A stretch of 57,300 nucleotides of DNA, from the NCBI GenBank assembly GCA_001002135.1, contig LCLP01000003.1, positions 107,198 through 164,497 of the forward strand, in the 5' to 3' direction. The stretch is from Candidatus Pacebacteria bacterium GW2011_GWA1_46_10. GTDB taxonomy: Bacteria; Patescibacteriota; Microgenomatia; UBA1400; PJMF01. The notes beneath the pieces were generated by a model. The model did not search any database. It saw only the letters and a list, made by a program, of their open reading frames with translations, and had not been told where the DNA came from. The position numbers and the translations under genes are program-made. Positions 9,368 through 57,300 of the stretch are shown one piece after another; position 1 is the first letter of the stretch, and the number at the start of each line of letters is the position of its first letter.

Positions 9368-9402
9368 TAAGAAATTATCTTAGAAAAAGGAGTAATTAAC
9401 AA

Positions 9403-10592: not shown

Positions 10593-10772
10593 AGCTTCAC
10601 TCCTTGTCTTAATGGTGTTTATTGTAAGCCGTTTGCCGGCCGTTTGTAAAATCGTTTCTTCACTCAACTCAAAAAAATCTGCACGCAGTATACTATACAA
10701 AAGTGAAAAACAAGCTCTTCTGAAAGATCGCGCTTTTTCTGATAGAATACCCACTCTAACAAGATTGACGCT

Positions 10773-10958: not shown

Positions 10959-10961
10959 ATC

Positions 10962-11747: not shown

Positions 11748-11751
11748 AAGA

Positions 11752-11848
11752 AAGTTAATAGTTTAAAGTTAATAGTAAATTTTTAAAAAATGGACGTGTT
11801 AAAATACCCCTTTCGAAACATCTATTAACTATCAACTATTAACTAACC
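11752..11848. repeat. Heptamer-periodic inverted repeat, copy 2
   Basis: AGTTAATAG units and CTATTAACT units flank a loop containing TGtTAAAAT (11797-11805). Confidence 0.7.
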
Positions 11849-11852
11849 AACT

Positions 11853-12278
11853 ATGGCAAAAAAAGTACAACAAGTTCTCAAACTCAATCTGCCGGCTGGG
11901 GCGGCTACTCCCGCACCCCCGATTGGTCCGATTTTAGGCCAAGCCGGCATCAACATGATGGAGTTTCTGAAACAATATAACGATGAAACCAAAGACAAAC
12001 GCGGTCAGGTTATTCCGGCTGAAGTCACTGTTTACCAAGACAAATCATTTACGTTTGTCCTCAAGTTACCGCCTGTTTCTGACCTCATCAAACAGCAACT
12101 CAAACTCCAAAAAGGCAGCAGTGACCCCAAGAAAGACATTGTTGGTGAACTGACTATAGATCAAGTCAAGGCTATTGCGGAAAAAAAGCTCCCTGACCTG
12201 AACACTACCAATCTCGAAAACGCCATTAATACAGTCAGCGGCACTGCCCGGAGTATGGGGGTGAAAGTCAAGGAGTAA
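11853..12278 (+). CDS. rplK: 50S ribosomal protein L11
   Basis: PAPPIGPILGQAGINMMEF...GTARSMG. Confidence 0.98.
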   Translation: MAKKVQQVLKLNLPAGAATPAPPIGPILGQAGINMMEFLKQYNDETKDKRGQVIPAEVTVYQDKSFTFVLKLPPVSDLIKQQLKLQKGSSDPKKDIVGELTIDQVKAIAEKKLPDLNTTNLENAINTVSGTARSMGVKVKE

Positions 12279-12286
12279 GGAACACG

Positions 12287-13015
12287 ATGGGTACAACTCG
12301 CAATGTAGACATGTCCAGCCAAGAGGTGAAAGTGAAAAAAGTCACCGCTCCGGCGGGCACAACCGAGGAAACTCCGGTTGAAGACGAAAAAGCGGCTAAG
12401 ACCCCAGCCAAGCCCCGCAAAATCCACGTCCGCAGTCAAAAGTACACCGCGATCAAGTCTAAAGTCGACCGCAACCGCAAGTATGACGCTTTGTCTGCCG
12501 TCGAGCTGATCAAACAACTCTCCTATGCCAAATTTGGAGGGACTGTCACAGCCGACGTAGAAGTCATTAGTACTGACGTCACGGCAGAGGTTACCCTCCC
12601 TCACCTTACTGGTAAACAGCAAAAAGTGGTGATTGCCGACGACACAATCCTCAAACAAATCGAGGCCGGTCAGCTGGACTTCGACGTGCTGGTGAGCTCC
12701 CCGCAGTTCATGCCAAAACTGGCCAAATATGCCCGAATCTTGGGTCCCAAAGGTCTGATGCCTAATCCAAAAAATGGCACCCTGAGCCCTAACCCAGAGC
12801 GCGCAGTTAAGGAGCTTGCCGCCGGCAAACAAATTATCAAAACCGAGAAGAAACAACCGTTGATGCACATTTCACTGGGGAAAACCTCAACCGAGACAAA
12901 AGCACTGATTGAAAACCTGCGCGCGCTCTATTCCCCACTCAAAAATAAAGTAATCAGCATCACCATCTCGTCCACCATGAGTCCTGGGGTAAAAATCGAC
13001 ACCGAGACCCTCTGA
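12287..13015 (+). CDS. rplA: 50S ribosomal protein L1
   Basis: LGPKGLMPNPKNGT and SSTMSPG motifs; N-terminal extension and shortened core. Confidence 0.95.
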   Translation: MGTTRNVDMSSQEVKVKKVTAPAGTTEETPVEDEKAAKTPAKPRKIHVRSQKYTAIKSKVDRNRKYDALSAVELIKQLSYAKFGGTVTADVEVISTDVTAEVTLPHLTGKQQKVVIADDTILKQIEAGQLDFDVLVSSPQFMPKLAKYARILGPKGLMPNPKNGTLSPNPERAVKELAAGKQIIKTEKKQPLMHISLGKTSTETKALIENLRALYSPLKNKVISITISSTMSPGVKIDTETL

Positions 13016-34000: not shown

Positions 34001-35141
34001 AGCTCAAGCAACAGGGAAACTCGTCAGCGAAGTCCTGGATGGAGTGAGTAATGGAGTCAAATATACTGCTCAGATAACAAGTAAGGCCATGGTTTTTGTT
34101 GAAAACACGATCCTTCGACCGGCCCAGGACGCAGCCGGCCAAATACTAGTGTTTGTCGGCAAAGCCGCGTCAAACACAGCCAACGCAGTGAGTCAAAAAC
34201 TGGTATTTTCCGGAGGAGAGATCCTTCAAACAACTCAGAACATGGTTGGACAGGGTACTTCAATTATCACCCAAAGAACTGAAAACTGGCTGGTGTCAGT
34301 CAGCCGAAATATCAGCAACACTGAAAAAGCCATTGATGATACGAGTGAAACCATTGGGGATGGATACAACCAGTTAGCTGACAATGCTTCAGGAGTTACC
34401 AAAACAATCTTAACTGGAATAGGGCAAGGGATATCGACGACAACTCGCTCGGTGGCCAGCACGACCAATACAGTCGTCAATACAACGGGTAGGGTTGCAC
34501 AAAACACTGCTTCTAGAATCAGCAATCTCTCCCACAGTGTTAGTACAACCACTACAACTATTACTCAAGGAGTCACGGTCGTGTCGAACATGGTTAAAAC
34601 AAGCGCGACTGCTAGCGGTAAGGCTATCACTCAAGCAGCTACTCTTACAGCAAAATCCGTACTCACCAACGCCACCACTCTTGCTAAAAGTGCTGGATCA
34701 GCCGCGTCAAACACAGCCAAAGCAATTACCAGCGCCACCAAAAACGGGGTCAACAGCACCAAAAAGGGAATAGCTGATTTAGCCTTTACTATTGGAGAAA
34801 AGACAGAAGATGTTTCTTATGAAGTGGGCACCATGATTATCAAATTCGGGTACTTATTCATTCCGGAACCAACCAGAATATCCAACGTCCGCGCCGTTGT
34901 CCTTTCTCCTACATCCGTAAAAATCACCTGGGATACCAACCATCCGGCCAACGGCAAAGTTAATTGGGGGTACGAAGATGGAATTTACGAATTTGAACAA
35001 CAAACTGACAAACGAACCAGTGAACATGAATTTACCCTGACTGGTCTTCAGCCAGACACGGAATACCACTATGAAGTGATGAGTCAAAACAGAAATTATG
35101 TCTATGATGCTAACCGGAAATTTCAGACGCCGGCTGAGTAG
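31047..35141 (+). CDS. Large secreted multidomain surface protein (lectin-like, Ig-like, helical Thr/Ser/Ala region, FN3)
   Basis: Signal/TM segment, LWLKAD...W.DQSG lectin-like domain, DT.AP Ig repeats and C-terminal W.T..PA...V.WG...L.GL.PDTEYHY FN3; start uncertain. Confidence 0.8.
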   Translation: MECSIYKVWKTIVKFKSKFLATLLILVLLFTQFSVLVPIVLAASSPWTQTDWLGGSGQTNWSDNTQFDSSSSVVTATAGQVTLTSTEELSNTGFEADLTGWDTGAQPDSLTDLTLWLKADAITGLNDGDGVTTWSDQSGQGFNASQTDATRKPIFKTNIINSQPIIRFDGSNDYLDVGTIRSTQGGLDTFVVSQRPSASGTQWQRLVSAWDGSSGDDFQGAGWIISGAWDGSGNPLVYSPDIRTASAASGKEISNLQFGRNSKYASQYFFGDVAEVIVYSTQLSSADNARVKNYLRDKYAVSVTAGITSVTQDTTTTYNGSAGSAKLVTATSDTGEFTQLVNVGDTNSYNLSAYVYTDGLVVTSSDAELFANGNTVTTTYTSAGGGWYQLTGTVTGVASSVQYGVQVKANKTVYLDDLSLNSYSASGSLTSSIFDTEFTAGAAWGTLTYTAITPTNTAVTVKVRTSNSSSMTGATDFSSCTTVTSGDDISSNGCATDSHRYIQYQLNLTSTDLVSTPTFQDISVTFETYDTNAPTLVLTAVSPDPGTDDTPTLTGTATEGTGTVTTVEFQMDATAGSWSSCTADDGSFDEAVETFACTPSTVLSDGSHIMYVRATDSNGNTTGSGSESSDTFTIDTTAPTSINLDSPGNNSYTNNERPSLKWKATSDATAGLSKYVLEIDNPAIGNDQPSGDFTIDDIPVSRTTDYETNKYVIHYENFADSDSTNDYISVYTKSHSDWGSSENDGQLREGKVSWKVKAVDNTGNETSSSRTLFVDRTSPKVELTQINDIPFSTANFSTTDKTPTIYGKIIDSLSGGDSSQTQDENGPKIASGPKQVEITVEKKESLGYKIIILYTINIDEFWYSCDNKEISDNSKQKCDKYLPFEYTSKENLDLGTYRITLTGKDGVENTNQTSLTLNISTLAEIATPEELETIEKELKQLSTEEQGIVEEKLVITKPTEPSTLEKVSTQLAQVAKSIFNSLSNAAQATGKLVSEVLDGVSNGVKYTAQITSKAMVFVENTILRPAQDAAGQILVFVGKAASNTANAVSQKLVFSGGEILQTTQNMVGQGTSIITQRTENWLVSVSRNISNTEKAIDDTSETIGDGYNQLADNASGVTKTILTGIGQGISTTTRSVASTTNTVVNTTGRVAQNTASRISNLSHSVSTTTTTITQGVTVVSNMVKTSATASGKAITQAATLTAKSVLTNATTLAKSAGSAASNTAKAITSATKNGVNSTKKGIADLAFTIGEKTEDVSYEVGTMIIKFGYLFIPEPTRISNVRAVVLSPTSVKITWDTNHPANGKVNWGYEDGIYEFEQQTDKRTSEHEFTLTGLQPDTEYHYEVMSQNRNYVYDANRKFQTPAE

Positions 35142-44552: not shown

Positions 44553-45419
44553 TTACTCACGCAAACCGGTTGACTGCACCCAAATTGTCTCTCCGTCAGT
44601 TGCCAATTCAATGTCACCCAATTGGTCGGTACGCAAAACCGCACTGCCCACAGCAGCCAAATTTTCCAACACCGATTGAGCTGGATGACCATAGCTATTT
44701 TTCCTACCGGCACTGATGACTGCCAAGCTTGGGCTGATTTTCTCGAGGAAAACCAGGCTGGAACTGGTCGCTGAGCCATGGTGACCGACTTTGAGCACGT
44801 CTACTTGAGGAAGTAGCCCACTGGCCACCAGCCATAACTCTCCTTTTTCCTCGAGATCACCGGTAAACAACCAGCTGGTTCGCCCGTACTCGAGTAAAAA
44901 CACGATGGAGCGGTCATTTTTACTCTGTGCGGCCGGGTTTTCGCCTGGTTTCTCGAGGAAAGTGAGCCAGCCTCCTTCCGGCAAACGAACTGACTGGCCT
45001 AAAATCGGCTGTTTCAAGGCGGCGCCGTTGGCTTGTTCCTGCAAAATTGCCTCTTTTAAAGCCTGGAGAGTGGCAGTATCCTTATTTGTAGCTGGGAAAA
45101 ACAGGTATTTTGTGTCATAAAGACCCAAAATTTCCTCGAAAAAACCGATGTGATCCTCGTCGCCGTGGGTCAAAATCATCACCTCAATCGTTCGATCCCA
45201 CGCCGGCAGAAACTTTCCCAAACAGCCTAGCACTCGATCATCCTTTCCGCTATCAATCAGCACTTGAAAAAAGTCTTGCTGTATCAGAATAGAATCACCC
45301 TGACCAACATCACAAAAGATAACTTTTATTGATGAATCAGGCCATTTTTTATAGACAAAATAACCCAAAAAAGCCAAAATTGCGGCGGTGTAAAAAAGGC
45401 GTTTTTTAAACTTTTTCAT
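44553..45419 (-). CDS. ComEC-type metallo-beta-lactamase-fold nuclease domain (stand-alone)
   Basis: DVGQGDS, THGDEDHIG, NDRSIV, LFTGDLE, KVGHHGS and SYGHP. Confidence 0.9.
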   Translation of the reverse strand: MKKFKKRLFYTAAILAFLGYFVYKKWPDSSIKVIFCDVGQGDSILIQQDFFQVLIDSGKDDRVLGCLGKFLPAWDRTIEVMILTHGDEDHIGFFEEILGLYDTKYLFFPATNKDTATLQALKEAILQEQANGAALKQPILGQSVRLPEGGWLTFLEKPGENPAAQSKNDRSIVFLLEYGRTSWLFTGDLEEKGELWLVASGLLPQVDVLKVGHHGSATSSSLVFLEKISPSLAVISAGRKNSYGHPAQSVLENLAAVGSAVLRTDQLGDIELATDGETIWVQSTGLRE

Positions 45420-46740
45420 GAAAAAAGTGCGTTTTTACTTCTCTTTTTCTACGGGTCAAAATAGCAAAAATACCTATAATTCCCGCCCAAATTGCTAGAT
45501 ATCGCTGCTCCAACCCTTCAGCCACAGTTTGATTAAGAAAATACCAAGGCTGCCACCAGGCTACAGCAGCTAAATAGAGCCGCAAAACGCCAGTCATCAG
45601 CGAGGAAGTTACCTCGAGTATCACTCGCACTGGCCAATATTGCTCAAAGAAAGCCAGGAGAAACTGTAACCCTGCCGCCTGGGTAATACCGCCAATCCAG
45701 GGTAAAAGCAGTGGGTTAGCCAGGAAACTCACCAAGTTGAGTGAGTGAAAAAACCAGATCAGCAGGGGAAAAATCAGTGCCTGAGCTGAGAGAGAAACTG
45801 CTCCCTCCTCGAGAAAAATGCGTGAAACCCTCTTTAACTGTGGCTCCCCATTTTTTGGCCATCCCTCCTGCCAAAAGAGCGATAAACGCCTAGAGAAAAC
45901 CATAATCCCGAGGGTAGCCAGCACTGACAACCAGAGGGAAAGTGAGGCAACCAGGGCGGGTTGAAAGCTGAGGATAATCACCACTGACCAGGCTAAAACA
46001 CGCACTCTTTGAGTCTTTTGGCCCAAAAACTTGAGCAGGAAAACCAGCGAAAACATCCAAGCCGCCCGTAATAATGGTGGTTGAAACTTGAGAAGAATGA
46101 CATAGGTCCAAACAACTGCTAAAATGAGAGTAAGTTGCATTTTTCTCGAGAAAAACCGAGTTAGTCGACGAGCCGCACCGGCTACCAGAGCGACGTTAAA
46201 ACCAGAGGCCACCAGCACGTGCAGCATACCGGCATTAGTAAAATCGGGATAAAAACTGGCTTCGGGAGATTTTTCTCCTAAAACTAAACCTCTCGTGAAC
46301 TGAAGGTTATCTTGAGAAAAGTAGAGTTTAAGCACGTTAATTTTTTTAGCCTGGATTTCCTCAAGAAAATTTTCCAAGCGAAAAAACCGATATTTAAACA
46401 AAGCCAACCAAAAATTTAAAAGACTTTTAGATTGATTAATCAATCCTTTTACAGTAAAAACCTGCTTGTCAATCAGTCCACTTTGATTGCTAAATTTCAG
46501 CTCGTTTTGGCTTTCTACCAGGCTAAACATCTGGTTTTTTGACCTCTCCAAACATTCATAACAAAGTGTATCAAAGTAGGTATTTTCTGAGAGTGATTTT
46601 GAGCTATTTCGGTTTCTGTTCGCTAGCCAAAACTGATCTATTAATATTTTTGAAATAATTATGGTTAATATAAATAGTATTAAGTAAATCAAAAACATAT
46701 TTTGTGATACTAGCCCGTTTTCTTTAAGATGAATGAACAT
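45406..46740 (-). CDS. comEC: ComEC/Rec2 competence membrane domain
   Basis: GMLHVLVASGFNV, PPLLRAA, LSVLATLGI and LANPL motifs. Confidence 0.88.
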   Translation of the reverse strand: MFIHLKENGLVSQNMFLIYLILFILTIIISKILIDQFWLANRNRNSSKSLSENTYFDTLCYECLERSKNQMFSLVESQNELKFSNQSGLIDKQVFTVKGLINQSKSLLNFWLALFKYRFFRLENFLEEIQAKKINVLKLYFSQDNLQFTRGLVLGEKSPEASFYPDFTNAGMLHVLVASGFNVALVAGAARRLTRFFSRKMQLTLILAVVWTYVILLKFQPPLLRAAWMFSLVFLLKFLGQKTQRVRVLAWSVVIILSFQPALVASLSLWLSVLATLGIMVFSRRLSLFWQEGWPKNGEPQLKRVSRIFLEEGAVSLSAQALIFPLLIWFFHSLNLVSFLANPLLLPWIGGITQAAGLQFLLAFFEQYWPVRVILEVTSSLMTGVLRLYLAAVAWWQPWYFLNQTVAEGLEQRYLAIWAGIIGIFAILTRRKREVKTHFFHEKV

Positions 46741-47821: not shown

Positions 47822-50299
47822 CTACTTTGTCGCAAAACTGACTATTTTGCCGGGAATGTAAATTTCTTTAACAATCTGTTTATCTTTGAGCCATTTTTCT
47901 ACCCCAGCAAGCTTTCTAGCCTCAACCAAGATAGTCGTTTGATCCTCAAGCTGACCATGCTCGACCGTCAACTGCCCCCTCAGCTTACCATCCACTTGAA
48001 CAGCCACCGCCACTCGCTCTTCCTGAGCGAGCTTGGCGTCAAATTTCGGCCAGGGTTGAACGTGAACGCCTTGGTATTGTTTGGTTCCCTTAACTGACAC
48101 TAACTGCCCATAGAGCTCCTCTGCCATAAACGGCGCGAACGGGGCCAGCATCTTTATAAACATCACCAAATCCTGACTGGTTAGAGCCGTTTCATCACTG
48201 TCGCGAGCGGTTTTCTCCCAAAGATTGAGAAACTCCATCATCGCCGCAATGGCTGTATTAAATTTCAGCGCCGGAATATCGGCCGTCACTTTTTTGAGGG
48301 TTTGATGGAGTTTTCGTGCCAACGCCGGATCAGTTTGACTCGAGACTTTTAATTGGTATACAGCAAAAACCCGTTTTAAGAACCGTGCCACTCCCGCCAC
48401 CGCCCGGTCATCCCAAGGCTTAGCCGCCTCCAGTGGCCCCATGAACATCTCATAAATACGCAAAGTGTCGGCGCCAAACTTACTAATAATCTCATCAGGA
48501 TTAATCACATTGCCCTTGCTTTTGCTCATCTTCTTGCCATCTGGCCCCAGAATCATGCCCTGGTGGCGCATTTTGGTGAAAGGCTCGTTAATGGTCAAAT
48601 ACCCCTCGTCACGCAAAAACTTAGTGAAAAAACGGGCGTACAGCAAGTGCAAAACAATGTGTTCCGGACCAATAAGGTACAAATCCACTGGCAGCCAAGC
48701 TTTCAGTTGCTTGGGATCAGCAAAAGCCTTGGTATTGCGAGCATCCAAGTAGCGAAGGAAGTACCAGCTGGAGTCGACAAATGTATCCATGGTGTCAAAC
48801 TCCGGCCGCCACCCCTTGCCATAGAGTTTCTCTGTGCGCGCCACAAATTCCTGGGAAGACTTGAGCGGCGATTCACCGGTCGGCTTAAAGTCCACGTCGG
48901 TGGGCAGTGTCCACGGCAGATGTTCCTCTTTTACCGGATGTGGTTTGCCGTCAGGATCATAGACAATCGGAATCGGTGCCCCCCAGTACCGCTGACGGGA
49001 AATCAGCCAGTCACGGAGTTTGTACGTCGTCTCCCAGCGTGCAAAGCCTTGTTCAATCATCCAGGCAGCCATATTCTCCTTGCCTGCTCCCCAGGCCTCT
49101 TGGCCATCAAACTGCCCAGAATTCACGAGTTTACCAGGACCCTCGAACGAACGCTCGCTGTTTCTAACCGCCTGATCGATCTTAGAATCGTCGTAAGAAA
49201 CAACTTGCGTAATCGGCAAACTATATTTCTTAGCAAAGGCAAAATCACGCTCATCATGTGCTGGCACACCCATCACGATCGCCGTGCCAACTCCCATCAA
49301 GATATAATCAGCCACAAACAGTGGTACCTCTTGGCCATTGACCAGATTCACCACAGTCAAGCCAGTGTTAACGCCGGTTTTGTCTTTCTCACCAATCCGG
49401 CGCTCTTCTTCGGTTTTATGTTTGGCCTGATCAAGATAATCAGCCACAGCCTGCTGTCTGTCAGCGGCCACTAAATTACCCAACTTCAACGCCTCGAATT
49501 TCTCTGGCGCCATCACCACAAATGTGGCCCCATACACCGTCTCCCAAAACTTGGTCCAGACAGGCAGCGCTTGACTATTTTTTTTAAGGGTGAAATCAAT
49601 CGTTAAGCCTTTGACTTTGCCTATCCAATTGCGTTGGTGTTGTTTGGTGGCCTCTGGCCAGTCAACCTGGTTAAGCCCGTCGAGTAACTCATCTTGATAC
49701 TGCGTAATCTTGAAATACCACTGCTCCAGTTCCTTTTGGACCACCTTAGTACCGCAGCGCTCGCAGTGGCCCTCGACTACTTGTTCATTGGCCAACACTG
49801 TCTGGTCCTTGGGGCACCAATTGACTACACCGATCCCTCGGTAAGCCAAACCCTTTTTATACAACTGGAGAAACAACCACTGGGTCCAACGATAGTACCC
49901 AGGGTGGTTGGTGGCCAGTTCATTAGCCCAATCGTAGGAAATACCTAGCCGTTGAATTTGGCCGCGAAAAGTGTCAATCGCCTCCCTGGTGGTGACTGCC
50001 GGGTGAACGCCGGTTTTGATAGCGTAGTTTTCTGCTGGCAGACCAAACGCGTCCCACCCGACCGGAAAGTAAACATCCTGGCCGGTCATCCGGTAGAAAC
50101 GCGTCAACATATCTAGTGCGGTCTTTGACTCCACATGACCAACATGGAGCCCAGAGCCAGACGGGTACGCAAAAGCAAATAAGAGATATTGCTTATTTTT
50201 TGGTAAGACAGCAACTTGATCTTGAAACAACCCAACTGTCGCCCAGTATTTTTGCCACTTGGCTTCTATTTTGGCGTGATCGTACTGCATTTTCTTCAT
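47822..50299 (-). CDS. leuS: Leucine--tRNA ligase
   Basis: YPSG.GLHVGH, GWDAFGLPAEN, CP...TVLANEQV..G.CERC, ISRQRYWG and KMSKS. Confidence 0.98.
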   Translation of the reverse strand: MKKMQYDHAKIEAKWQKYWATVGLFQDQVAVLPKNKQYLLFAFAYPSGSGLHVGHVESKTALDMLTRFYRMTGQDVYFPVGWDAFGLPAENYAIKTGVHPAVTTREAIDTFRGQIQRLGISYDWANELATNHPGYYRWTQWLFLQLYKKGLAYRGIGVVNWCPKDQTVLANEQVVEGHCERCGTKVVQKELEQWYFKITQYQDELLDGLNQVDWPEATKQHQRNWIGKVKGLTIDFTLKKNSQALPVWTKFWETVYGATFVVMAPEKFEALKLGNLVAADRQQAVADYLDQAKHKTEEERRIGEKDKTGVNTGLTVVNLVNGQEVPLFVADYILMGVGTAIVMGVPAHDERDFAFAKKYSLPITQVVSYDDSKIDQAVRNSERSFEGPGKLVNSGQFDGQEAWGAGKENMAAWMIEQGFARWETTYKLRDWLISRQRYWGAPIPIVYDPDGKPHPVKEEHLPWTLPTDVDFKPTGESPLKSSQEFVARTEKLYGKGWRPEFDTMDTFVDSSWYFLRYLDARNTKAFADPKQLKAWLPVDLYLIGPEHIVLHLLYARFFTKFLRDEGYLTINEPFTKMRHQGMILGPDGKKMSKSKGNVINPDEIISKFGADTLRIYEMFMGPLEAAKPWDDRAVAGVARFLKRVFAVYQLKVSSQTDPALARKLHQTLKKVTADIPALKFNTAIAAMMEFLNLWEKTARDSDETALTSQDLVMFIKMLAPFAPFMAEELYGQLVSVKGTKQYQGVHVQPWPKFDAKLAQEERVAVAVQVDGKLRGQLTVEHGQLEDQTTILVEARKLAGVEKWLKDKQIVKEIYIPGKIVSFATK

Positions 50300-50314
50300 C
50301 GTTCAGTCTATTTT

Positions 50315-50361
50315 AACTACCAACCACTAACTATCAACTATGAACTCTAAACTATTCAACT
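50315..50361. repeat. Heptamer-periodic repeat, single arm, copy 4
   Basis: AACTATC-AACTATG-AACTCTA-AACTATT units upstream of leuS. Confidence 0.7.
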
Positions 50362-50711
50362 TTCTTTTTGTGCAAAACTGGTGGAAAAGTAACCTTCCAT
50401 AAGTAACTTCGGCTATTATTCACGCATCATTACAAGGACTATAGTGACTTAGCAAAATCGGTCTTTATTACCGCATTATTCACGATTTATTACCGAATAA
50501 TCTGGTACATCGATTAACGCAAAAATAAAAATATTGATATTAATACTATTTTGTATATCTTACTGTTTTTACTTTTCTTACATTTTCAAAAACCCGAAGT
50601 AACTTTCTAACATACCGAAAAAGAATCAGAAAAAAGAAAAAGAAAAACCAGAGTAAAAATAACCTTAAAATAAGTCAATCAAAAGGAATCAAACCAAATT
50701 ATGAATATTAC

Positions 50712-51458
50712 TTACTCTCTGGAACTTAAGTTTTGAAGCTGAAAAAGCAGTTCAACTCCGTTTGGAACTTGAGGAAAATAAAAATGTTGTAGACCATAAT
50801 CCAGCTTTAACGCCGAGAAGAGCCGATCAAAGACTGAAAAGAAGCGTAATTTAGCTTGATTTGTGAGTGAATTTAACGAACTATCCCCTGTTAGCAAACT
50901 GTCAATCTCTTTGCTAATACCAGAGTAAGTCTCTGCAAGATCAGCTAAACCAAAATTTGAACCTATAATCTCCTTCTCATCTCCGAAGAGCCAATCCTTG
51001 AGCTTGACCACCATCACCCCCCCCTCATAGGTGTTATGCAACTCAAAAGTCACTCGATCCGGTAACTCACCCGGGTAAAGAAACATTCCTCTGGCTGCCG
51101 GCAGGGCATGAGTGCCGAGTAAAGTTCGACGGAGAAAGCGAAAGTTTTTATCTTGTTTTGGCGCTCGCAAAAAGAAGATCCCATACCACTCTCCTTTCCA
51201 CTCACGCCTCGAAGGTGAAAAAACCGGAATTTGGGCCTCCAGTGCCCTCATACCGTGGGTCGTGATGCTGGCCAACGATTCGTTCTGGATTTTTTCCAAC
51301 CGGATTCTTTTCCTAGCTTGAAGAAACGAGAGAATCGACTGCAAACCGCCTGAAGTTAAGTCCGGAGCAATCATGGCAAATTCAGCAGTCTTGACCCAAC
51401 GAGCCGTTTTATCTGAGGGGTAAAGCCAGCTTAATAAGCGTTGAGCATTTTCTTTCAT
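50712..51458 (-). CDS. PaaX-like transcriptional regulator
   Basis: Winged-helix-like N-terminus (ITTHG), then WKGEWYGIFF...FRFLRRTL...GMFLYP resembling the PaaX central domain. Confidence 0.65.
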   Translation of the reverse strand: MKENAQRLLSWLYPSDKTARWVKTAEFAMIAPDLTSGGLQSILSFLQARKRIRLEKIQNESLASITTHGMRALEAQIPVFSPSRREWKGEWYGIFFLRAPKQDKNFRFLRRTLLGTHALPAARGMFLYPGELPDRVTFELHNTYEGGVMVVKLKDWLFGDEKEIIGSNFGLADLAETYSGISKEIDSLLTGDSSLNSLTNQAKLRFFSVFDRLFSALKLDYGLQHFYFPQVPNGVELLFQLQNLSSRE

Positions 51459-52039
51459 GGTAATCTTTATCTTTATTTCGCCTTACTTCTGCATCAAGAC
51501 ACTATTGCAAAATCAGCGACAAATATTTATAGCGCAAACTGGTCGTTTCTTTCATTTTTCCACATCTCTCTTTCCCGAAACTCCAAAAACAACACTGGGT
51601 ACGAAAAAAAACCGATAGGCAACACTGAGCTAAAAATAAAGTTTTAATCTGATTTATAAGGCCTTTCAAGCTATGTTTTGTTAACATATTCTCCAAGCAT
51701 AACTACAAATTACAGATTCTCGTTCACATAATACACCTTTTCTATAGACTTTCACAAGCCTCACTTGTTGTGAAAAAACGGCCGTGATCACCAACCTGAA
51801 ACAGCAGCGGTGATCATTAATGAATACTTTTGATCTCTTTTCAGCCACTTCATGGTGAGTAAGGTGATCTCTACTCGAGGAAAAAGTGCTATTTTTTGTG
51901 TAAAACTCGCAACACAATACTCCCTTTGAAAAGCCGAAATTATAGTTGCAATAGACCTTCAAAAAACCATAAACTCAAGCCTGAGTTCGTGATCTAACAC
52001 CAGTGTCTAAATCCTCTGGGTTACACACGAAAAAAAGCT

Positions 52040-55000
52040 ATGCCACGGCAGCCTGCCCGCTCCACCCTCTCCGCCCGCGAAAACACTGCCTTTTCCACAA
52101 GTCAGTCGTTCAATACGCCAAACACCCAAACTAAACCCATTAATTTCGAGAAACTGCTGGAGAAATACCTTAACAGCTTAGCGGCTAACGGGACGGCCGA
52201 CGCCACCATCAGAAATTATCGCAGTGATATTGCCCAATTTCTCTCGAGTGTACCGGATCAAAACTCCCTCAACTCTGGTGAACTACGAAAACAGCTTGTG
52301 GAAAAATTTCTCCTTTCCCAGAGAGAAAAAGGCCTCAGTGCAGCCACAGTGCGCCGGAAATTAATCAGCACCACCCAATTCCTGCAGTGGGCTGCCCAAA
52401 CCAGTACCCCTCCTGCTCGGGCGACCACTCGATCAATCACTCAGCCAACTACTCAACTGACTACTCAACCGACCGCCTTACCTCAGAGTAGCCCTCTCCC
52501 CACCGTTCCGGCCGGAAAGCCAGCAGAAGTCTATCTCATTCCTCTGGCCATTGAAAAAGTTCTCAACCAATACCTGACTACGCTCAAATACAACTCGGCT
52601 TCTGACGCCACCATCAGAAACTACCGCAGTGACATCAAGCAGTTTGCTGCCTTCATCAGGGAAAAAACCATCGACACACTGCTGGTCCTCAATAACCTCA
52701 AGCGGTTCGCCCTCTCCCAGAAAGAAAAAGGACTCAAGGCGACCTCAGTTCAACGAAAGTTGACCAGTATCACCCAATTCGCCCTCTGGGCACAACGGCG
52801 TAAATTGATCCCGACCGCCAGCAGCGACTGGTCATCGACTGCCTTAGACAGTGTTTTTTTCCCTACCTCAGACAGCCCGATTGTGGTGACCGCTCCCACT
52901 CCAGACGAAACAGTAAAACTGGGCAAACGGAAACGGCTGAAAGAAGGCTGGTTGGCCGGCTTAGTGCTTTTGCTGTTGTTGTTTGGCAGTTCGATCGGTC
53001 TCTACCTAGTCCAAACAGTCCAAGAGCTGCGGCGTCAGGCCGCGGAGACCACTGAAGTCCCGACGACCGCTGCTCAGCAAATTGACTACTCCACCCTCAC
53101 TCAAGTACTCGAGGGAAATCACGCCATTCCATTTAGCGGCAAACTGTATAAAGACACCGGCGAACAAGTAACAGGTACCACGGTGGCATTTTTTAGTCTG
53201 TTGGACGGACCGTCTGATGAGGCCGAGGTCGTTTGGGAATCAGGCGCTTGTCAAGTCAAGACCGATTCTCAGGGTATTTTCAATATTAACCTGGGTGGAG
53301 GCACCGGTAGTGGGACTGACAATAGTGAGTGTGGACCCCCACTCTCCAATGACGTCTACTACGGCGAGAGTAACCTCTGGTTATTGCCAACGATCGGCGG
53401 TCAACAACTGGCTCTTTACCCAGTTAAAACGGTTTCTTACTCCGAAGACTCACAGCTACTGGACGGCGCACCACTTGGCAACCCGGTCATCAATGAGTCG
53501 GTGCTCTACATGAATGACCAGGGTGAAGTGCTATTTGCTGACGAACCAACTTTCAATGTGCCAGCGGGAAATCTCACTTTGGCTGGCGAAAATCTGTATT
53601 TTGTGACTGAAGGTAGGGGCGATATTTTGGCAGACAGCAGAATCATCGCTCCGAGTGCCATTTTTGGCGGTGGTGAACAATCACCACTCATCCTACTTCA
53701 GGGCGAAGAGAGCACTGCCCCGCTGTTGGACCTGCGCGATAGCCAAGGTCAACAGTTAGGGGTGATCGATATCCAGGGTCGACTGGGGCTGGGCACCACC
53801 ACCCCGCAAGGACTAATCGGACTGGGAGGTAACGGCGCCTATATCAGCGCCGATAATAACAACCTGGTTTTTTATGATACTGCCACCGGCACCGTCAAAA
53901 CTCTCTCCGACTTAGCGGCCGGCGGCGTGGACACCAACTTCTGGTCTCAATCCGGCACCTCGATTTACTACACTGGCGGTCAAGTAGGAGTCGGCACCAG
54001 CAGTACCGAACAGACCTTAACTGTGGGCGGCAACATCCAGTTGGGCACCACAGACGCCGACCGATATATCTACTTTGACAATGGCACTAGTGCCAACAGT
54101 GGTATCCGTTATAACGCCACCAACGACAAAATCCAGTTTAGCCATGATGGCTCAACTTGGAGTGATTTGGGTACGACTGGGGTTACTTCGGTCACTAACT
54201 CCGACGGTACGCTGACCATCTCGCCCACCACCGGCGCAGTCGTGGCCTCACTCAATCTCGGCCACGCTAATACCTGGACAGCCACCCAAACTTTCGCCGG
54301 TCTGACCGCTTCCGGGACCGTCACTTTCTCAGGTCTGAGCGCTGGTGTCGACAACACAGTCCTCGTCCTCAACTCAAGTAACCAACTGGTGACCGATGAA
54401 ATTGATAGTCGGGTTTGGGGAACTACCCTCGTTGACGGAACTGGGACCGCTGATTATGTAGCCTACTGGTCTGATACTGATACGCTGGCCGCGGAACAGT
54501 ACTTGGCCACTGCCCGAGGTGGCCTGGGTGGGAATGTGACGGCCCTTGGGGCTGGAGAGGTGTTGTACTCGACCGGCACTACTGCCTATGACTCACTGGC
54601 AGCTGGTTCTAGTGGGCAACTCTTAACTTCTGGTGGGGCAGCTGCTCCTTCTTGGAGTAACATCGCCTCCCTGCTGACTGCTGGTGATGACATTGTCTTC
54701 ATTGAAGACGGCGGCGATGTGGGAGTAGGCACTAACGCACCTGAACAAGACCTGACCGTGGCCAGCAACATTCAACTGGGAGTGACTGACGGAGACAGAT
54801 ATATCTACTTTGATAACGGCACACTCAGTAACGCTGGTTTTCGCTATAACGCCACCGGCGATCAAATGGAGTTTAGTAACGATGGTACCACCTGGACAGC
54901 TTTCAGCGACCTGACTTCCGGCCTGGTTACCTCAGTCAGCAACTCTGATGGCACCTTGACGATCTCACCCACCACCGGGGATGTAGTAGCTTCACTCAAT

Positions 55001-55051
55001 CTCAGTAACGCTAATACTTGGTTGGCGCTACAAACCTTCAACATGACCTAG
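52040..55051 (+). CDS. Giant repeat surface protein, fragment 1: two integrase core-binding (SAM-like) domains, TM helix and extracellular repeats
   Basis: Two copies of (A/S).ATIRNYRSDI.QF...K.L...(T/S)V.RKL.S..QF..WA, then a TM helix at about aa 305-325 and GxVGVGT repeats. Confidence 0.8.
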   Translation: MPRQPARSTLSARENTAFSTSQSFNTPNTQTKPINFEKLLEKYLNSLAANGTADATIRNYRSDIAQFLSSVPDQNSLNSGELRKQLVEKFLLSQREKGLSAATVRRKLISTTQFLQWAAQTSTPPARATTRSITQPTTQLTTQPTALPQSSPLPTVPAGKPAEVYLIPLAIEKVLNQYLTTLKYNSASDATIRNYRSDIKQFAAFIREKTIDTLLVLNNLKRFALSQKEKGLKATSVQRKLTSITQFALWAQRRKLIPTASSDWSSTALDSVFFPTSDSPIVVTAPTPDETVKLGKRKRLKEGWLAGLVLLLLLFGSSIGLYLVQTVQELRRQAAETTEVPTTAAQQIDYSTLTQVLEGNHAIPFSGKLYKDTGEQVTGTTVAFFSLLDGPSDEAEVVWESGACQVKTDSQGIFNINLGGGTGSGTDNSECGPPLSNDVYYGESNLWLLPTIGGQQLALYPVKTVSYSEDSQLLDGAPLGNPVINESVLYMNDQGEVLFADEPTFNVPAGNLTLAGENLYFVTEGRGDILADSRIIAPSAIFGGGEQSPLILLQGEESTAPLLDLRDSQGQQLGVIDIQGRLGLGTTTPQGLIGLGGNGAYISADNNNLVFYDTATGTVKTLSDLAAGGVDTNFWSQSGTSIYYTGGQVGVGTSSTEQTLTVGGNIQLGTTDADRYIYFDNGTSANSGIRYNATNDKIQFSHDGSTWSDLGTTGVTSVTNSDGTLTISPTTGAVVASLNLGHANTWTATQTFAGLTASGTVTFSGLSAGVDNTVLVLNSSNQLVTDEIDSRVWGTTLVDGTGTADYVAYWSDTDTLAAEQYLATARGGLGGNVTALGAGEVLYSTGTTAYDSLAAGSSGQLLTSGGAAAPSWSNIASLLTAGDDIVFIEDGGDVGVGTNAPEQDLTVASNIQLGVTDGDRYIYFDNGTLSNAGFRYNATGDQMEFSNDGTTWTAFSDLTSGLVTSVSNSDGTLTISPTTGDVVASLNLSNANTWLALQTFNMT

Positions 55052-55632
55052 TAGTAGCCAAAACGAGCGGGAATGTTGGCATTGGCACTACCGCCCCTGA
55101 TACTGCTTTGGAAATTAACCACGCCACCGGCAACAACCTGCGCCTAACGTACAATGACGCTGACGGTAGCGCTCTCAATTACACCGATTTTACCCTCGAT
55201 AGTTCCGGCAACCTGACTATTAACAGTTCCGGCACCCAAACTACTGTGAGTGATACTTTAGTGCTGGGTACAGCTGGCGCTGGTACCACTGACAGTGTGA
55301 TTGTCAGAGAAGCCGGCGGTGATCTGGCTGCTCGTTCTATCGACTCCCGAGTCTGGGGTTCAAGCCTAGTGGATGGTTCAGGAACGGCTAACTATGTCAC
55401 TTACTGGTCAGACTCAAATACTTTAGCGGCCGAACAGTATTTAGCTACCTCCAGAGGTGGGCTGGGTGGAAATGTGACGGCCCTTGGAGCTGGAGAGGTA
55501 TTGTATTCCACCAGCACTACTGCCTATGACTCCCTGGCAGCTGGTTCTAGTGGGCAACTCTTAACTTCTGGTGGGGCAGCTGCTCCTTCTTGGAGTAACA
55601 TCGCCTCCCTGCTGACTGCTGGTGATGACATT
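54516..55632 (+). repeat. Near-identical 179-bp coding repeats (54516-54694 and 55454-55632)
   Basis: Both encode RGGLGGNVTALGAGEVLYS...LLTAGDDI. Confidence 0.85.
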
Positions 55633-55668
55633 CTGCTCCTTCTTGGAGTAACATCGCCTCCCTGCTGA
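55018..55668 (+). pseudogene. Giant protein, frameshifted fragment 2
   Basis: Same repeat family (GNVGIGTTAP, IDSRVWG) in a new frame after about 55042. Confidence 0.7.
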
Positions 55669-55685
55669 CTGCTGGTGATGACATT
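55580..55685 (+). repeat. Perfect 53-bp tandem duplication causing a frameshift
   Basis: 55580-55632 is identical to 55633-55685. Confidence 0.92.
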
Positions 55686-56432
55686 GATATTACTGGGACG
55701 ACTACCGCCACGGTTGCCCTGGAGGACGATATTGATGTCAGTGCTGTTAGGGCTTCCTCCGTTAATGGCTTGTATCTGTATGACGATGGTGGCAACCTAG
55801 GCTTGTTTGTAGCTGACCAGGGTGATGTCGGCATTGGCACTGACACGCCAGACTCAGTTCTGCACGTGGATGTTGGTGCTCAAGATAAAAACATCAAGTT
55901 TTCCGCTGACGCTACCTTTAGTACCGGTTTGGATCTTTTTAGTGGCACCCAATACTCGCAACTGATGCAGGAAACGACTGGTGAGTTGTCCCTAAAAAAC
56001 CGTAACCAAGACGAAAACATCCAGTTTCTGGTCAACGACGGCGGGGTACTCACTACCGCCATGACAGTTGAAGGTTCCAGCAGCGAAGTGGGCATCGGCA
56101 CCAGTCTTCCAGAGGAAAGATTAACGGTCAGCGATAACATTCAACTCGGGATCACTGATAGCACTCGCTACATCTACTTTGACAACGGGACCGCCAATAA
56201 CGGCGGCTTTCGCTATAACGCCACTAGTGATGTCATGGAATACTCCGATGACGGCACTACCTGGACTGCCTTTAGTGCTCTGACTTCTGGCCTAGTTACT
56301 TCTGTCAGCAATTCTGATGGCACCTTGACGATCTCACCCACCACCGGGGATGTAGTAGCTTCACTCAATCTCAGTAACGCTAATACTTGGTTGGCGCTAC
56401 AAACCTTCAACCAACTCGCTGGCGATTGCTGA
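55635..56432 (+). pseudogene. Giant protein, frameshifted fragment 3
   Basis: Frame open from the second duplication copy (WSNIASLLTAGDDIDITG...) to TGA 56430. Confidence 0.7.
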
Positions 56433-57300
56433 TACCGATGTGGCCCTGACTGGTGCTTCAACCAACTTTACTGCCACCGGCAACTTCTCAGTCAACACCG
56501 ATGATCTAGTCGTTGAGAAGTCAACGGGTGACATCGGGGTGGGTACAACCGACCCAAGTTCCAGATTAGATGTCCAAGACACCGGCACAGCCAAAGCCAA
56601 CGCTGATCTTTTTGAAATCACCAACGATGTTAATGCTCTGGACATGGATGCCACCGAAACGAGTATTCTTTTCAACCAGTACTACTATGACGCTGTTACT
56701 CCGGCCGTCGCGGATGCTGGACGAATTACGGTCGGCACGGAAACAGATTGGACGAGCACAGCCACTACTCAGGATGCTTACTTGTCTTTCCAAACCGCCC
56801 TTGATGGTACCTTGACTGAGCGATTGAGAATCACCAGTGCTGGAGTATTTGACATTGGCACAAACACTTTCTCTGATGGTAATTTCACCGGTAACTGGAG
56901 CTTTAACTCCGGCAATCTCTCTGGTATCGCCAATTTGACCGCCAGTGGCACCATCGAGTTTTCTGGTCTTGGCACCGGTACTGATAACACGGTTGTTATC
57001 CTCAACTCGAGCAACCAACTAACCACCGACGAAATTGACTCGAGGGTGTGGGGCACTTCATTGGTCGACTACTCCAGCTCTACGGCCAACTATATTCCAC
57101 TTTTCTCTGACGCTGACACGATCACTAACTCAGTCTTGAGCCAAAGTAGCGGTAACATCATTTCTGGTGGAGATATTCAACTATCTGACACTTACACCCT
57201 TGAGGTCGGCGGCCTAACCGGGGTGGCCTACAATGCCCTGGCCAACTCCGGTGAAGCCCCTGAGGAAGCCGCCATCTCCAGCGACAATGACCTGTATGTG
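56410..57300 (+). pseudogene. Giant protein, fragment 4, open to the window end
   Basis: Stop-free frame (TNSLAIADTDV...DEIDSRVWG...) running off the window; absent from the ORF track. Confidence 0.75.

What the first reader, a model, noticed from the sequence alone, without database searches (positions are those of the whole stretch)
50712..57300. Integrase core-binding domains fused through a TM helix to a giant extracellular repeat protein, divergent from a PaaX-like regulator
The N-terminal ~260 aa holds two tyrosine-recombinase core-binding (SAM-like) domains separated by a Thr/Pro linker. I see no R-K-H-R-H-Y catalytic domain. A TM helix follows, then more than 1400 codons of Gly/Thr-rich beta repeats resembling tail fibres or adhesins. 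The topology places DNA-binding modules inside the cell and a long fibre outside. This could be a chromosome or incoming-DNA tether, or a contact-sensing one-component system, near the comEA/comEC genes. Such proteins would be mis-annotated as integrases.
Basis: partly seen in the sequence, partly recalled or inferred. Interest (0 to 1): 0.7.

Follow-up and report, generated by a model that had tools for sequence, protein, structure and literature searches.

The report
Membrane-anchored giant fibre with recombinase-derived cytoplasmic tail
An ultrasmall groundwater (CPR/Patescibacteria) bacterium encodes a giant cell-surface fibre whose short cytoplasmic tail is two DNA-binding-type domains borrowed from Xer-type recombinases. 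It always sits next to a PaaX-like regulator gene. This is a real, conserved and apparently undescribed design that may link the outside fibre to DNA inside the cell, though DNA binding has not been tested.

Summary
The N-terminal observation holds. There are two Phage_int_SAM_1 (core-binding) domains, a disordered Thr/Pro/Gln linker, no catalytic domain, one N-in/C-out TM helix, and then a tail-fibre/MAT-like ectodomain. The PaaX-like neighbour is confirmed by fold.

The window does not hold one long ORF. The ORF stops at 55051 (1003 aa), and coding continues through three frame breaks. Independent assemblies and contigs from four runs do not support these breaks, so they are assembly artefacts. 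A sibling scaffold carries an uninterrupted ORF of at least 3804 aa.

The architecture defines a family. Of the best 149 clusters (50% identity), 138 have one or two SAM-like domains N-terminal of the TM helix. Median length is 2254 aa and the maximum is 7697 aa. None has a catalytic domain, and some carry Peptidase_S74. All genomic hits are Patescibacteria.

In 20 of 20 loci of the window's subfamily a PaaX-like gene lies divergently upstream across a 420-670 bp spacer with conserved motifs. comEA/comEC synteny is limited to the closest relatives.

Best reading: a surface adhesion fibre whose basic, recombinase-derived tail binds DNA, probably at its own control region together with the PaaX-like regulator. 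DNA binding is inferred, not shown. I found no description of this architecture in the paper library I searched.

The parts
50712..51458 (-). PaaX-like regulator gene (248 aa): winged helix, Cas2-like middle domain, helical C-terminal domain
   Evidence: The AF2 model has pLDDT 83 and pTM 0.78. Foldseek's top hits are PaaX 8a39 (E 2e-5), Rv0674 3kfw and 3l09. PaaX_M matches 11 of 16 orthologues, all below the Pfam cutoff. The gene is the divergent neighbour in 18 of 18 GTDB loci plus L030 and L032.
51459..52039 (.). 581-bp divergent control region with motifs conserved across the family
   Evidence: Conserved blocks appear in the alignments. Hexamer enrichment against shuffles and strand bias are shown. 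No Rfam family matches and no conserved small ORF is present.
51574..51580 (+). CCCGAAA box
   Evidence: CCCGAA occurs 28 times against 1.3 expected, in 16 of 19 spacers. Nearly all copies are on the + strand, and the motif is about 10 times denser here than in the surrounding DNA.
51722..51758 (.). GTTCACATAATACAC...TTTCACAAG: two TTCACA boxes 28 nt apart, overlapping a sigma-70-like promoter on the minus strand (TTGTGA-18-TATTAT)
   Evidence: The 28-nt spacing recurs in 11 spacers. The promoter scan finds the minus-strand site at 51757-51728. This is the only such pair in the 57-kb window.
51871..51906 (+). Block CTACTCGAGG...TTTTGTGTAAAAC, conserved in the closest relatives; function unknown
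   Evidence: Seen in the alignment with L009-L011.
51945..51976 (+). Candidate promoter of the fibre gene (TTGCAA, 17-18 nt spacer, TAAACT), read by eye
   Evidence: The aligned TTGAC/TTGCA and TA.ACT blocks are conserved across 19 loci. The site falls below the threshold of the promoter scan.
52003..52026 (+). Leader motif GTGTCTAAATCCTCTGGGTTACAC (family consensus GTCTAAnnAATCTGG)
   Evidence: The motif is conserved 15-90 nt upstream of the start codon in most loci. It forms a GTCTAA...TTAGAC hairpin in six of them.
52040..55051 (+). Fibre gene as it stands in the window (1003-aa ORF), truncated by an assembly error
52145..52405 (+). Core-binding (SAM-like) domain 1, aa 36-122
52412..52531 (+). 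Disordered Thr/Pro/Gln linker, aa 125-164
   Evidence: pLDDT is below 50; the composition is read directly from the sequence.
52544..52858 (+). Core-binding (SAM-like) domain 2, aa 169-273, with motifs ATIRNYRSDIKQF and KGLKATSVQRKLTSITQFALWA
   Evidence: This is the most conserved part of the family.
52946..53020 (+). Single TM helix (aa 303-327) preceded by KLGKRKRLKE
   Evidence: Hydropathy and charge bias; helix 295-336 in the AF2 model.
53102..53479 (+). Cell-proximal beta-rich domain, weakly similar to Bdello_MAT_N
   Evidence: NCBIfam NF053851 gives E 0.003 for the window protein and E 2e-6 to 5e-4 in 5 of 6 family members. All scores are below the curated cutoff.
53480..57300 (+). Gly/Thr/Asp-rich fibre repeats (GNVGIGTTxP modules), continuing beyond the window end
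   Evidence: Repeat families D1-D6. Weak PHROG tail-fibre hits. The sibling scaffold reads through without a stop.
54694..54695 (+). Assembly junction: 117 nt (in frame) missing relative to L001, L003 and L006
55042..55043 (+). Assembly junction: 85 nt missing, which shifts the frame and creates the stop at 55049-55051
   Evidence: The contig that starts at 55043 is preceded by a paralogue of 56430-56500.
55580..55685 (+). Exact 53-nt tandem duplication, which shifts the frame
   Evidence: Contig depth is 0.2-0.8 over 55565-55635, against 5-20 in the flanks.
56405..56411 (+). Four extra nucleotides, which shift the frame
   Evidence: The contigs of all four runs leave out 4 letters at 56408. 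L001 lacks them too.

Best explanation
The gene encodes a type-II (N-in/C-out) single-pass membrane protein of at least 3804 aa.

**Outside.** A cell-proximal beta-rich domain is followed by a very long fibre. The fibre is probably trimeric and resembles phage tail fibres and Bdellovibrio MAT fibres. It most likely serves attachment to, or recognition of, other cells by an ultrasmall, probably episymbiotic CPR bacterium.

**Inside.** About 300 residues form two Xer-derived core-binding domains on flexible linkers. They are strongly basic and lack any catalytic domain, so they cannot recombine DNA. I propose that they bind DNA at the membrane. The most probable target is the gene's own 581-bp divergent control region, acting together with the PaaX-like regulator encoded next door. 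That would either tune expression of this very costly gene or hold the locus at the membrane while the giant chain is made and exported.

**Shown:** the architecture, the topology signals, the absence of a catalytic domain, conservation across the family, the obligate pairing with the PaaX-like gene in this subfamily, and the conserved cis motifs.

**Inferred:** fibre trimerisation, the adhesion role, DNA binding, and the identity of the target DNA.
For: - **Domain identity and fold:**
- **Topology and charge:** there is one TM helix with a positive-inside bias. The cytoplasmic part has net charge +20 (range +2 to +21 across the family), whereas the ectodomain is acidic, with D+E 12% and K+R 2%.
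- **Selection on the tail:** the tail is the most conserved part of the protein. Of about 95 columns, 21 are invariant across eight domains that are 34-68% identical. They include N, R, S, D, Q, K, R, K, S and Q in the two helices that align with the conserved Xer motifs.
- **Family:** 266 clusters score E<=1e-30. Of the best 149, 138 carry SAM-like domains, and in 136 of those 138 the domains lie N-terminal of the TM helix.
- **No catalytic domain** in any of the 168 family proteins tested.
- **Fibre nature:** weak Bdello_MAT_N hits directly after the TM helix, Peptidase_S74 in P0152 and in 28 of 168 proteins, and PHROG tail-fibre hits. The MAT paper describes the same order, a conserved beta-rich domain followed by a trimeric fibre (PMC10769870).
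- **Partner gene:** a PaaX-like gene is divergent and adjacent in 18 of 18 loci at 26-64% identity, and also in L030 and L032. LeuRS and the com genes are syntenic in only three loci.
- **Cis elements:** motifs are enriched, strand-biased and specific to the spacer.
- **Precedent:** Foldseek also returns the phage phi3T repressor SroF bound to DNA, listed among the recombinase hits.
Against: - No experiment or computation here shows DNA binding. An isolated core-binding domain may bind DNA only weakly (my recollection, not tested here).
- The TTCACA pair coincides with an ordinary sigma-70-like promoter. The other motifs could be operators of the PaaX-like protein alone.
- A more distant subfamily (L028, L034) has SAM-like domains but no PaaX-like neighbour within 2-3.5 kb. 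The pairing is therefore not universal.
- Trimerisation is not tested for this protein, and no S74 domain is seen in the 3139 aa available.
- The C-terminus of the window's gene was never seen.
- No expression data exist. The only RNA runs listed came from the same studies and hold none of the sequence's words.
Confidence: 0.4

Rival explanations
1. The cytoplasmic core-binding domains are protein-interaction modules rather than DNA binders. They dock or sequester the PaaX-like regulator at the membrane, in the way RsgI holds sigma-I or PtsG holds Mlc. The state of the fibre (assembled, engaged or cleaved) would then control how much free regulator reaches the divergent promoters.
For: The gene is paired with the PaaX-like gene in 20 of 20 loci of this subfamily. 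Surface-type residues of the tail are strongly conserved. The PaaX-like protein already supplies a winged-helix DNA-binding domain.
Against: Nothing found here shows a core-binding domain acting as a regulator-docking module. The tail's basic charge of +20 is more typical of nucleic-acid binding. SAM-bearing fibres without a PaaX-like neighbour exist. A complex could not be modelled with these tools.
Confidence: 0.22
2. The tail is a structural anchor with no specific ligand. It is a folded, basic, exapted domain that fixes the N-in orientation, bundles three chains under the membrane, or binds acidic lipids. The protein would then be simply a very large adhesin.
For: Fibres without a tail exist as second genes of tandem pairs and start directly with the TM helix (P0287 and P0276). 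Linker lengths and the number of SAM-like domains vary between members.
Against: Invariant polar and basic residues persist across proteins that are only 25-35% identical. That is more constraint than a simple plug or topology signal needs. The domain is retained in 138 of 149 clusters.
Confidence: 0.18
3. The tail tethers the chromosome in general, or incoming DNA, as part of natural competence.
For: The tail is basic and membrane-proximal. comEA and comEC lie 3-5 kb away. Pilin-like genes flank complete family loci.
Against: The com genes are syntenic only in the three closest relatives and are separated from the fibre gene by leuS. Incoming DNA is single-stranded after passing ComEC, whereas core-binding domains bind duplex DNA (the last two points rest on general knowledge, not on a test here).
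Confidence: 0.07
4. The fusion is an artefact or a dead gene: a truncated integrase pseudogene joined to a surface-protein gene by misassembly or by decay.
For: The window copy carries three frame breaks, and contigs habitually end inside this gene.
Against: The same N-terminal 885-1141 codons occur without stops in six independent assemblies. The architecture recurs in 138 clusters, including complete genes of 3321-4208 aa on long contigs. The frame breaks are not supported by independent contigs.
Confidence: 0.02

Closest known systems
Xer-type tyrosine recombinases (XerC, XerD, XerA): N-terminal core-binding (SAM-like) domain
   Same: The two N-terminal domains match PF02899 above its cutoff. 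They match the first ~100 positions of the XerC/XerD models and superpose on core-binding domains, for example 3nrw with TM 0.72 at 2.3 A. The motifs ATIRNYRSDI and S..RKL.S..QF align with the Xer motifs.
   Different: There is no catalytic domain anywhere in the protein. The domain is duplicated in tandem, followed by a TM helix, and fused to an exported fibre of several thousand residues. The protein cannot be a recombinase.
Bdellovibrio MAT (mosaic adhesive trimer) fibres and phage tail fibres or spikes with a Peptidase_S74 chaperone
   Same: A conserved beta-rich domain lies next to the membrane-targeting element, followed by a long repetitive beta fibre. Family members carry S74 and lectin-like tip domains (F5/8 type C, Laminin_G_3) (PMC10769870).
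   Different: MAT proteins have a cleaved signal peptide, about 1000 residues and no cytoplasmic part. Here an uncleaved signal-anchor retains a cytoplasmic tail of about 300 aa, and the fibres are 2000-7700 aa long. The similarity to Bdello_MAT_N is below the curated cutoff.
ToxR/CadC/TcpP-type membrane-bound one-component regulators
   Same: The topology is the same: an N-terminal cytoplasmic DNA-binding-type domain, one TM helix and an external domain.
   Different: Those regulators use an OmpR-type winged helix and a small periplasmic sensor (established knowledge). Here the cytoplasmic domain is recombinase-derived, the external part is a giant fibre, and no DNA binding or regulation has been shown.
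Recombinase-derived repressors of SPbeta-like phages (SroF of phi3T; MrpR/YopR, the latter recalled from memory)
   Same: They set a precedent for recombinase-like DNA-binding domains being reused for regulation. SroF bound to DNA appears among the Foldseek hits.
   Different: SroF is about 310-320 aa and aligns over only about 110 columns. The window's protein keeps only the core-binding domain and is membrane-anchored.
MyRF (eukaryotic membrane-tethered transcription factor with an S74/ICA domain)
   Same: It combines a DNA-binding domain, a TM helix and a phage-type S74 trimerisation module in one chain. The MAT paper notes S74 in MyRF; the rest is from memory.
   Different: In MyRF the order is DNA-binding domain, S74, TM helix, so self-cleavage frees the DNA-binding domain. 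Here S74, where present, lies far outside the cell after the TM helix, so its cleavage cannot release the tail.
PaaX (the repressor of the E. coli phenylacetate pathway), for the neighbouring gene
   Same: The three-domain fold is the same: winged helix, Cas2-like domain and helical domain. PaaX is the top Foldseek hit.
   Different: Sequence scores are far below the family cutoffs (TIGR02277 at 19 bits against 264). None of the neighbouring genes annotated here is a paa-pathway gene. The ligand is unknown.

Membership tests
Tyrosine recombinase / phage integrase | N-terminal core-binding (SAM-like) domain | tested here: met
   PF02899 scores 64 bits against a cutoff of 22.3, with two copies. 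The fold matches core-binding domains.
Tyrosine recombinase / phage integrase | C-terminal catalytic domain (PF00589) with the R-K-H-R-H/W-Y residues | tested here: not met
   No PF00589 hit in the window product, in 3139 aa of the sibling scaffold, or in P0150 and P0152. A full-length Xer HMM never aligned beyond position 140 in 168 family proteins, even at E<=10. The last 665 or more residues of this particular gene were not seen.
MAT / S74 tail-fibre-like trimeric fibres | Conserved beta-rich domain of about 130 aa directly after the export signal | tested here: inconclusive
   NF053851 Bdello_MAT_N gives E 0.003 for the window protein and E 2e-6 to 5e-4 in 5 of 6 relatives. Scores are 20-28 bits against a cutoff of 60.
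MAT / S74 tail-fibre-like trimeric fibres | Cleavable N-terminal signal peptide (secreted protein with no cytoplasmic part) | tested here: not met
   The N-terminus is hydrophilic. The only hydrophobic segment is at aa 303-327, after about 300 folded residues.
MAT / S74 tail-fibre-like trimeric fibres | Peptidase_S74 intramolecular chaperone near the C-terminus (S74 subgroup) | tested here: inconclusive
   S74 is present in P0152 (PF13884, E 1e-13) and in 28 of 168 family proteins. It is not found in the 3139 aa available for this gene, and the C-terminus is unseen.
MAT / S74 tail-fibre-like trimeric fibres | Intertwined trimeric beta-helix or beta-prism shaft | not testable with these tools
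Only composition, repeats and weak PHROG tail-fibre hits are in hand.
ToxR-like membrane-bound one-component regulators | Cytoplasmic OmpR-type winged-helix DNA-binding domain | tested here: not met
   The cytoplasmic domains are SAM-like four-helix bundles, not winged helices.
ToxR-like membrane-bound one-component regulators | Single TM helix with N-in/C-out topology | tested here: met
   Hydropathy and positive-inside bias hold in all 20 family proteins examined.
ToxR-like membrane-bound one-component regulators | Sequence-specific promoter binding and transcriptional control from the membrane | not testable with these tools
   Only indirect signs are available: a basic tail and conserved spacer motifs.
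PaaX family (neighbouring gene 50712-51458) | Three-domain architecture: winged helix, Cas2-like PaaX_M domain, C-terminal helical domain | tested here: met
   The AF2 model aligns over its full length with PaaX 8a39, Rv0674 and 3l09. PaaX_M is detected in 11 of 16 orthologues.
PaaX family (neighbouring gene 50712-51458) | Sequence membership (TIGR02277 / Pfam gathering scores) | tested here: not met
   TIGR02277 scores 19.2 bits against a cutoff of 264.6. PF20803 scores 14.2 bits against 24.
PaaX family (neighbouring gene 50712-51458) | Control of a phenylacetate (paa) catabolic operon through phenylacetyl-CoA | tested here: not met
   None of the neighbours annotated here is a paa-pathway gene. 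They are leuS, comEA, comEC and the fibre gene. Ligand binding cannot be tested.

The most novel reading that the evidence does not exclude
The protein is a contact-to-genome signalling device of an episymbiotic ultrasmall bacterium. The giant fibre senses attachment to a host cell through load, cleavage or assembly state, and transmits this through its single TM helix to a cluster of recombinase-derived DNA-binding domains. These domains then act at the membrane (ToxR-like) or after proteolytic release (Notch/MyRF-like), together with the PaaX-like partner, to switch gene expression. A related variant is that the tail, the first part of the chain to be made, grabs its own locus in cis and pins it to the membrane, so that the 11-23 kb message is translated directly into the export channel.
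Probability: 0.15. Interest if true: 0.9.

Novelty: new variant of a known kind. Interest (0 to 1): 0.62.

Why it matters
CPR/Patescibacteria make up a large share of bacterial diversity and appear to live attached to other cells. How they recognise hosts, and how they couple attachment to gene expression, is largely unknown.

This family offers a concrete candidate. It comprises at least 138 clusters of proteins 2000-7700 aa long, among the largest genes in these tiny genomes. It physically joins a host-facing fibre to a DNA-binding-type module and comes with a dedicated regulator gene.

It would also be a clean case of a recombinase DNA-binding domain being reused outside recombination.

There is a practical point as well. 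These genes are named 'site-specific integrase' in public records, and assemblies break or scramble inside them, so they are undercounted and misread.

Tried and rejected
- **Exact look-up of the 1003-aa product:** not on record. The neighbour's product was used instead.
- **Profile search with the SAM-like domain alone:** returned only proteins of 174 aa or less, so it said nothing about the architecture. It did show that stand-alone SAM-like proteins of about 170 aa are common. The exhaustive representative search answered the question.
- **Rfam on 50000-57300:** only a chance lncRNA hit.
- **Small ORFs in the spacer:** not conserved.
- **Exact 48-mer from the far end of the sibling gene, scanned against JGI metagenome contigs to reach the C-terminus:** no match.
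- **RNA runs:** six were listed from the same studies, but none holds any of the sequence's words.
- **Apparent 'SAM-less' and 'mini-domain' relatives:** most turned out to be truncated gene calls. P0274's open frame holds two SAM-like domains upstream of the called start. P0292's domain is split by a stop codon from an upstream 163-aa ORF.
- **Resemblance of GTTCACATAA to the XerD arm of dif (sequence recalled from memory):** only one arm matches, there is no inverted partner at 6-8 bp, and the cumulative GC skew does not turn in the window. I keep it as a lead only.
- **A conserved RNA hairpin around GTCTAA...CTGG:** present in only some loci, so I do not claim an RNA structure.
- **Programmed frameshifting or silent cassettes as an explanation for the frame breaks:** rejected, because independent contigs lack the changes.

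Full report
**1. What is in the window**

On the minus strand, 50712-51458 encodes a 248-aa protein. On the plus strand an ORF starts at 52040 and stops at 55051, giving 1003 aa.

Beyond 55051, fibre-like coding sequence continues to the window end, but in other frames. The frame changes near 55043, near 55633 and near 56411.

**2. The frame breaks are assembly artefacts**

The neighbour's exact protein occurs on 22 public contigs. One of them, a 209.8-kb groundwater scaffold (L001), carries at the same position an uninterrupted gene of 3804 aa that runs to the contig end. Five other contigs end inside the gene after 749-1141 codons.

Against L001, the window is 99.8-100% identical apart from four differences:
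- 117 nt missing, in frame, at 54694/54695;
- 85 nt missing at 55042/55043;
- an exact 53-nt tandem duplication at 55580-55685;
- 4 extra nt near 56408.

L003 and L006 agree with L001 across the first junction. L002 collapses the repeats in yet another way. L004 ends exactly at the branch point.

Logan contigs of four independent runs were laid on 54500-56600. All four leave out the 4 nt. They show a contig starting at 55043 that is preceded by a paralogue of 56430-56500, which is the L001 arrangement. Depth over the duplication junction is almost zero (0.2-0.8, against 5-20 in the flanks).

The true gene is therefore intact and at least 3804 codons long. The window copy is scrambled at its internal repeats (D1-D6).

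**3. The N-terminal part**

- Pfam finds Phage_int_SAM_1 at 64 bits (cutoff 22.3) in two stretches, and no PF00589. NCBIfam matches only the first ~100 positions of the XerC/XerD/XerA models.
- AlphaFold2 (10-row alignment, mean pLDDT 73) gives two confident helical bundles at aa 36-122 and 169-273, with block means mostly above 90. It also gives disordered segments at 1-30, 125-164 and 277-299, and a long helix at 295-336.
- Foldseek against the PDB returns almost only core-binding domains of tyrosine recombinases: 3nrw (TM 0.72, 2.3 A), lambda Int, Cre, Tn1549 Int, XerA and IntI. It also returns the phage phi3T repressor SroF.
- The only hydrophobic segment is at aa 303-327 (Kyte-Doolittle 2.31). 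It is preceded by KLGKRKRLKE.
- The cytoplasmic part has net charge +20. The ectodomain is acidic and rich in Thr, Gly, Ala, Ser, Asp and Asn.

**4. The ectodomain**

- Directly after the TM helix lies a beta-rich domain (relatives read SFQGRLTDTAQNPI...WDSG.C...DQDGIF...NSN.WLEV...PRQ.I..V.YA). It gives weak hits, below the curated cutoff, to NCBIfam Bdello_MAT_N in the window protein and in 5 of 6 relatives.
- Family members carry Peptidase_S74 (P0152, E 1e-13; 28 of 168 proteins by iterated search) and lectin-type domains such as F5/8 type C and Laminin_G_3.
- The window's own repeats give weak PHROG tail-fibre hits.
- No other Pfam domain is found in the 3139 aa available.

**5. A real family**

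- A word-based search found few close relatives. Two of them are named 'site-specific integrase, partial' by NCBI.
- A scan of one genome per GTDB species for ATI[RK]NYRSD found 18 loci. Those with informative labels are Patescibacteria (Pacebacteria, Woesebacteria, Paceibacterota). Seven 'Pseudomonadales' labels and three plain 'bacterium' labels are uninformative, and I take them to be placeholders.
- In 17 of the 18 loci the ORF runs off the held sequence, at up to more than 3078 aa. The apparent stop in the remaining locus (L021) follows a run of N.
- The exhaustive search of 1.84 billion representatives found 266 clusters at E<=1e-30.
- Of the best 149 clusters, 138 have SAM-like domains, and 43 of these have two. 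In 136 of the 138 the domains lie N-terminal of the strongest hydrophobic segment. Median length is 2254 aa, 21 are 4000 aa or longer, and the maximum is 7697 aa.
- A full-length Xer HMM never aligns past its core-binding part in any of the 168 family proteins.
- The membrane-proximal SAM-like domain is the best conserved region, with 21 invariant columns including ATIRNYRSDIxQF and KGLKxxSxxRKLxSIxQFxxWA.
- Several seemingly tail-less relatives are truncated gene calls, or are the second genes of tandem fibre pairs.

**6. The neighbour and the spacer**

- The 248-aa protein folds confidently (pLDDT 83, pTM 0.78) into a winged helix, a ferredoxin-like (Cas2-like) domain and a helical domain. 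Its best PDB matches over the full length are E. coli PaaX, Rv0674 and 3l09. Sequence scores are below the family cutoffs.
- It is the divergent upstream neighbour in 18 of 18 GTDB loci, at 26-64% identity. leuS, comEA and comEC are syntenic only in the three closest loci.
- The pairing also holds in two complete loci, L030 and L032. It does not hold in a more distant subfamily, L028 and L034.
- The spacer is long for these compact genomes, at 421-668 bp, and carries conserved elements:
  - CCCGAA(A): 28 observed against 1.3 expected, in 16 of 19 loci, almost always on the + strand, and about 10 times denser than in the surrounding DNA.
  - Two TTCACA boxes 28 nt apart.
  - A GTCTAAnnAATCTGG motif 15-90 nt before the start codon.
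- The TTCACA pair overlaps a sigma-70-like promoter facing the PaaX-like gene, so part of this conservation is ordinary promoter sequence.
- No Rfam family matches and no conserved small ORF is present.

**7. Interpretation**

Shown:
- The protein is a single-pass N-in/C-out membrane protein.
- Its cytoplasmic tail consists of recombinase core-binding domains that cannot catalyse recombination.
- Its exterior is a tail-fibre/MAT-like giant fibre.
- The design is conserved in many CPR lineages, and in this subfamily it forms a two-gene module with a PaaX-like regulator.

Inferred:
- The fibre is trimeric and adhesive.
- The tail binds DNA.

The most economical model has the tail acting on its own control region together with the PaaX-like protein. 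It would either autoregulate a very costly gene or keep the locus at the membrane during synthesis and export. I rate DNA binding of some kind at roughly 0.55, and the local-target version at 0.3-0.4.

The rivals are as follows. The tail could be a docking site that sequesters the PaaX-like regulator. It could be a structural or topological anchor. Or it could be a general DNA tether linked to competence, which is weakly supported because the com synteny is shallow. That the fusion itself is an artefact is excluded.

**8. Known relatives and novelty**

- The protein fails the defining test for an integrase because it has no catalytic domain.
- It resembles MAT/S74 fibres outside the cell, but differs in having a signal-anchor and a cytoplasmic tail.
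- It has the topology of ToxR-like regulators, but a different DNA-binding fold and a giant exterior.
- Like MyRF it combines a DNA-binding domain, a TM helix and S74, but in an order that rules out the MyRF release mechanism.
- Four full-text searches found no description of this architecture. That library is incomplete, so prior description cannot be excluded.

I file it as a new variant of known kinds. The chance that it is a new kind of contact-to-genome device is modest.

Noticed in passing
L020 aa ~557-800 of the fibre ORF (locus ORF 7752-12449); also L018 and L021: Three relatives carry what looks like a true intein inside the exported fibre. It is inserted in the recurrent GNVGIGTT motif (...HVVGH|CVTGDT...NFVGNDIVAHN|TYITGNVGIGTT...). 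The L021 copy is about 150 aa longer. An intein in a secreted structural protein is unusual.
   Followed up: partly
L030 16943-20627; L032 13864-17191; L027 16795-20798: In complete loci the fibre gene is followed, on the opposite strand, by two or three type IV pilin-like genes (N_methyl). In L030 and L027 these are accompanied by one gene with no Pfam hit. A large TPR-protein gene then follows. This suggests a wider conserved neighbourhood linking the fibre to pilus-like components. The window ends before this region.
   Followed up: partly
L027 1-16798; L031 1-10015; L033 540-15490; L034 3501-16966: Fibre genes often come in tandem, with overlapping stop and start codons. In L027 and L031 the second gene starts directly with a TM helix and has no SAM-like tail. 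In L033 and L034 a second giant gene follows the SAM-bearing one.
   Followed up: partly
proteins P0022-P0121: Many stand-alone proteins of about 170 aa consist only of SAM-like integrase N-terminal domains. Some sit on contigs of several hundred kb, and one is labelled Patescibacteria. I did not check whether they are gene fragments or free-standing DNA-binding proteins.
   Followed up: no
window 44553-46740 (-): ComEC appears as two overlapping ORFs: a 444-aa Competence-domain protein (45406-46740) and a 288-aa Lactamase_B protein (44553-45419). The split is the same in six assemblies and in L009 and L011, so it looks genuine rather than an error.
   Followed up: partly
window 3001-6000: A low-GC stretch (0.27-0.32, against about 0.47 elsewhere) covers two minus-strand ORFs of 633 and 415 aa. 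It may be a foreign island. I did not examine it.
   Followed up: no
window 31047-35141 (+): This is a second large surface-type protein (1364 aa) with Big_13 and a C-terminal fn3/purple-acid-phosphatase-N domain. It has no SAM-like domain and is unrelated to the fibre family.
   Followed up: partly
L029 2419-3001: In this relative the SAM-like domain is cut in the middle by a stop codon. A 163-aa ORF ends with helices A-B, and the fibre ORF begins with helices C-D. This is either a sequencing error or a real split. It explains the 'mini-domain' gene calls in the database.
   Followed up: partly
L003 4817-7274: In one sibling assembly leuS is called as two genes (464 and 372 aa) instead of one of 825 aa. 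This is another sign that these short-read assemblies contain local errors.
   Followed up: no
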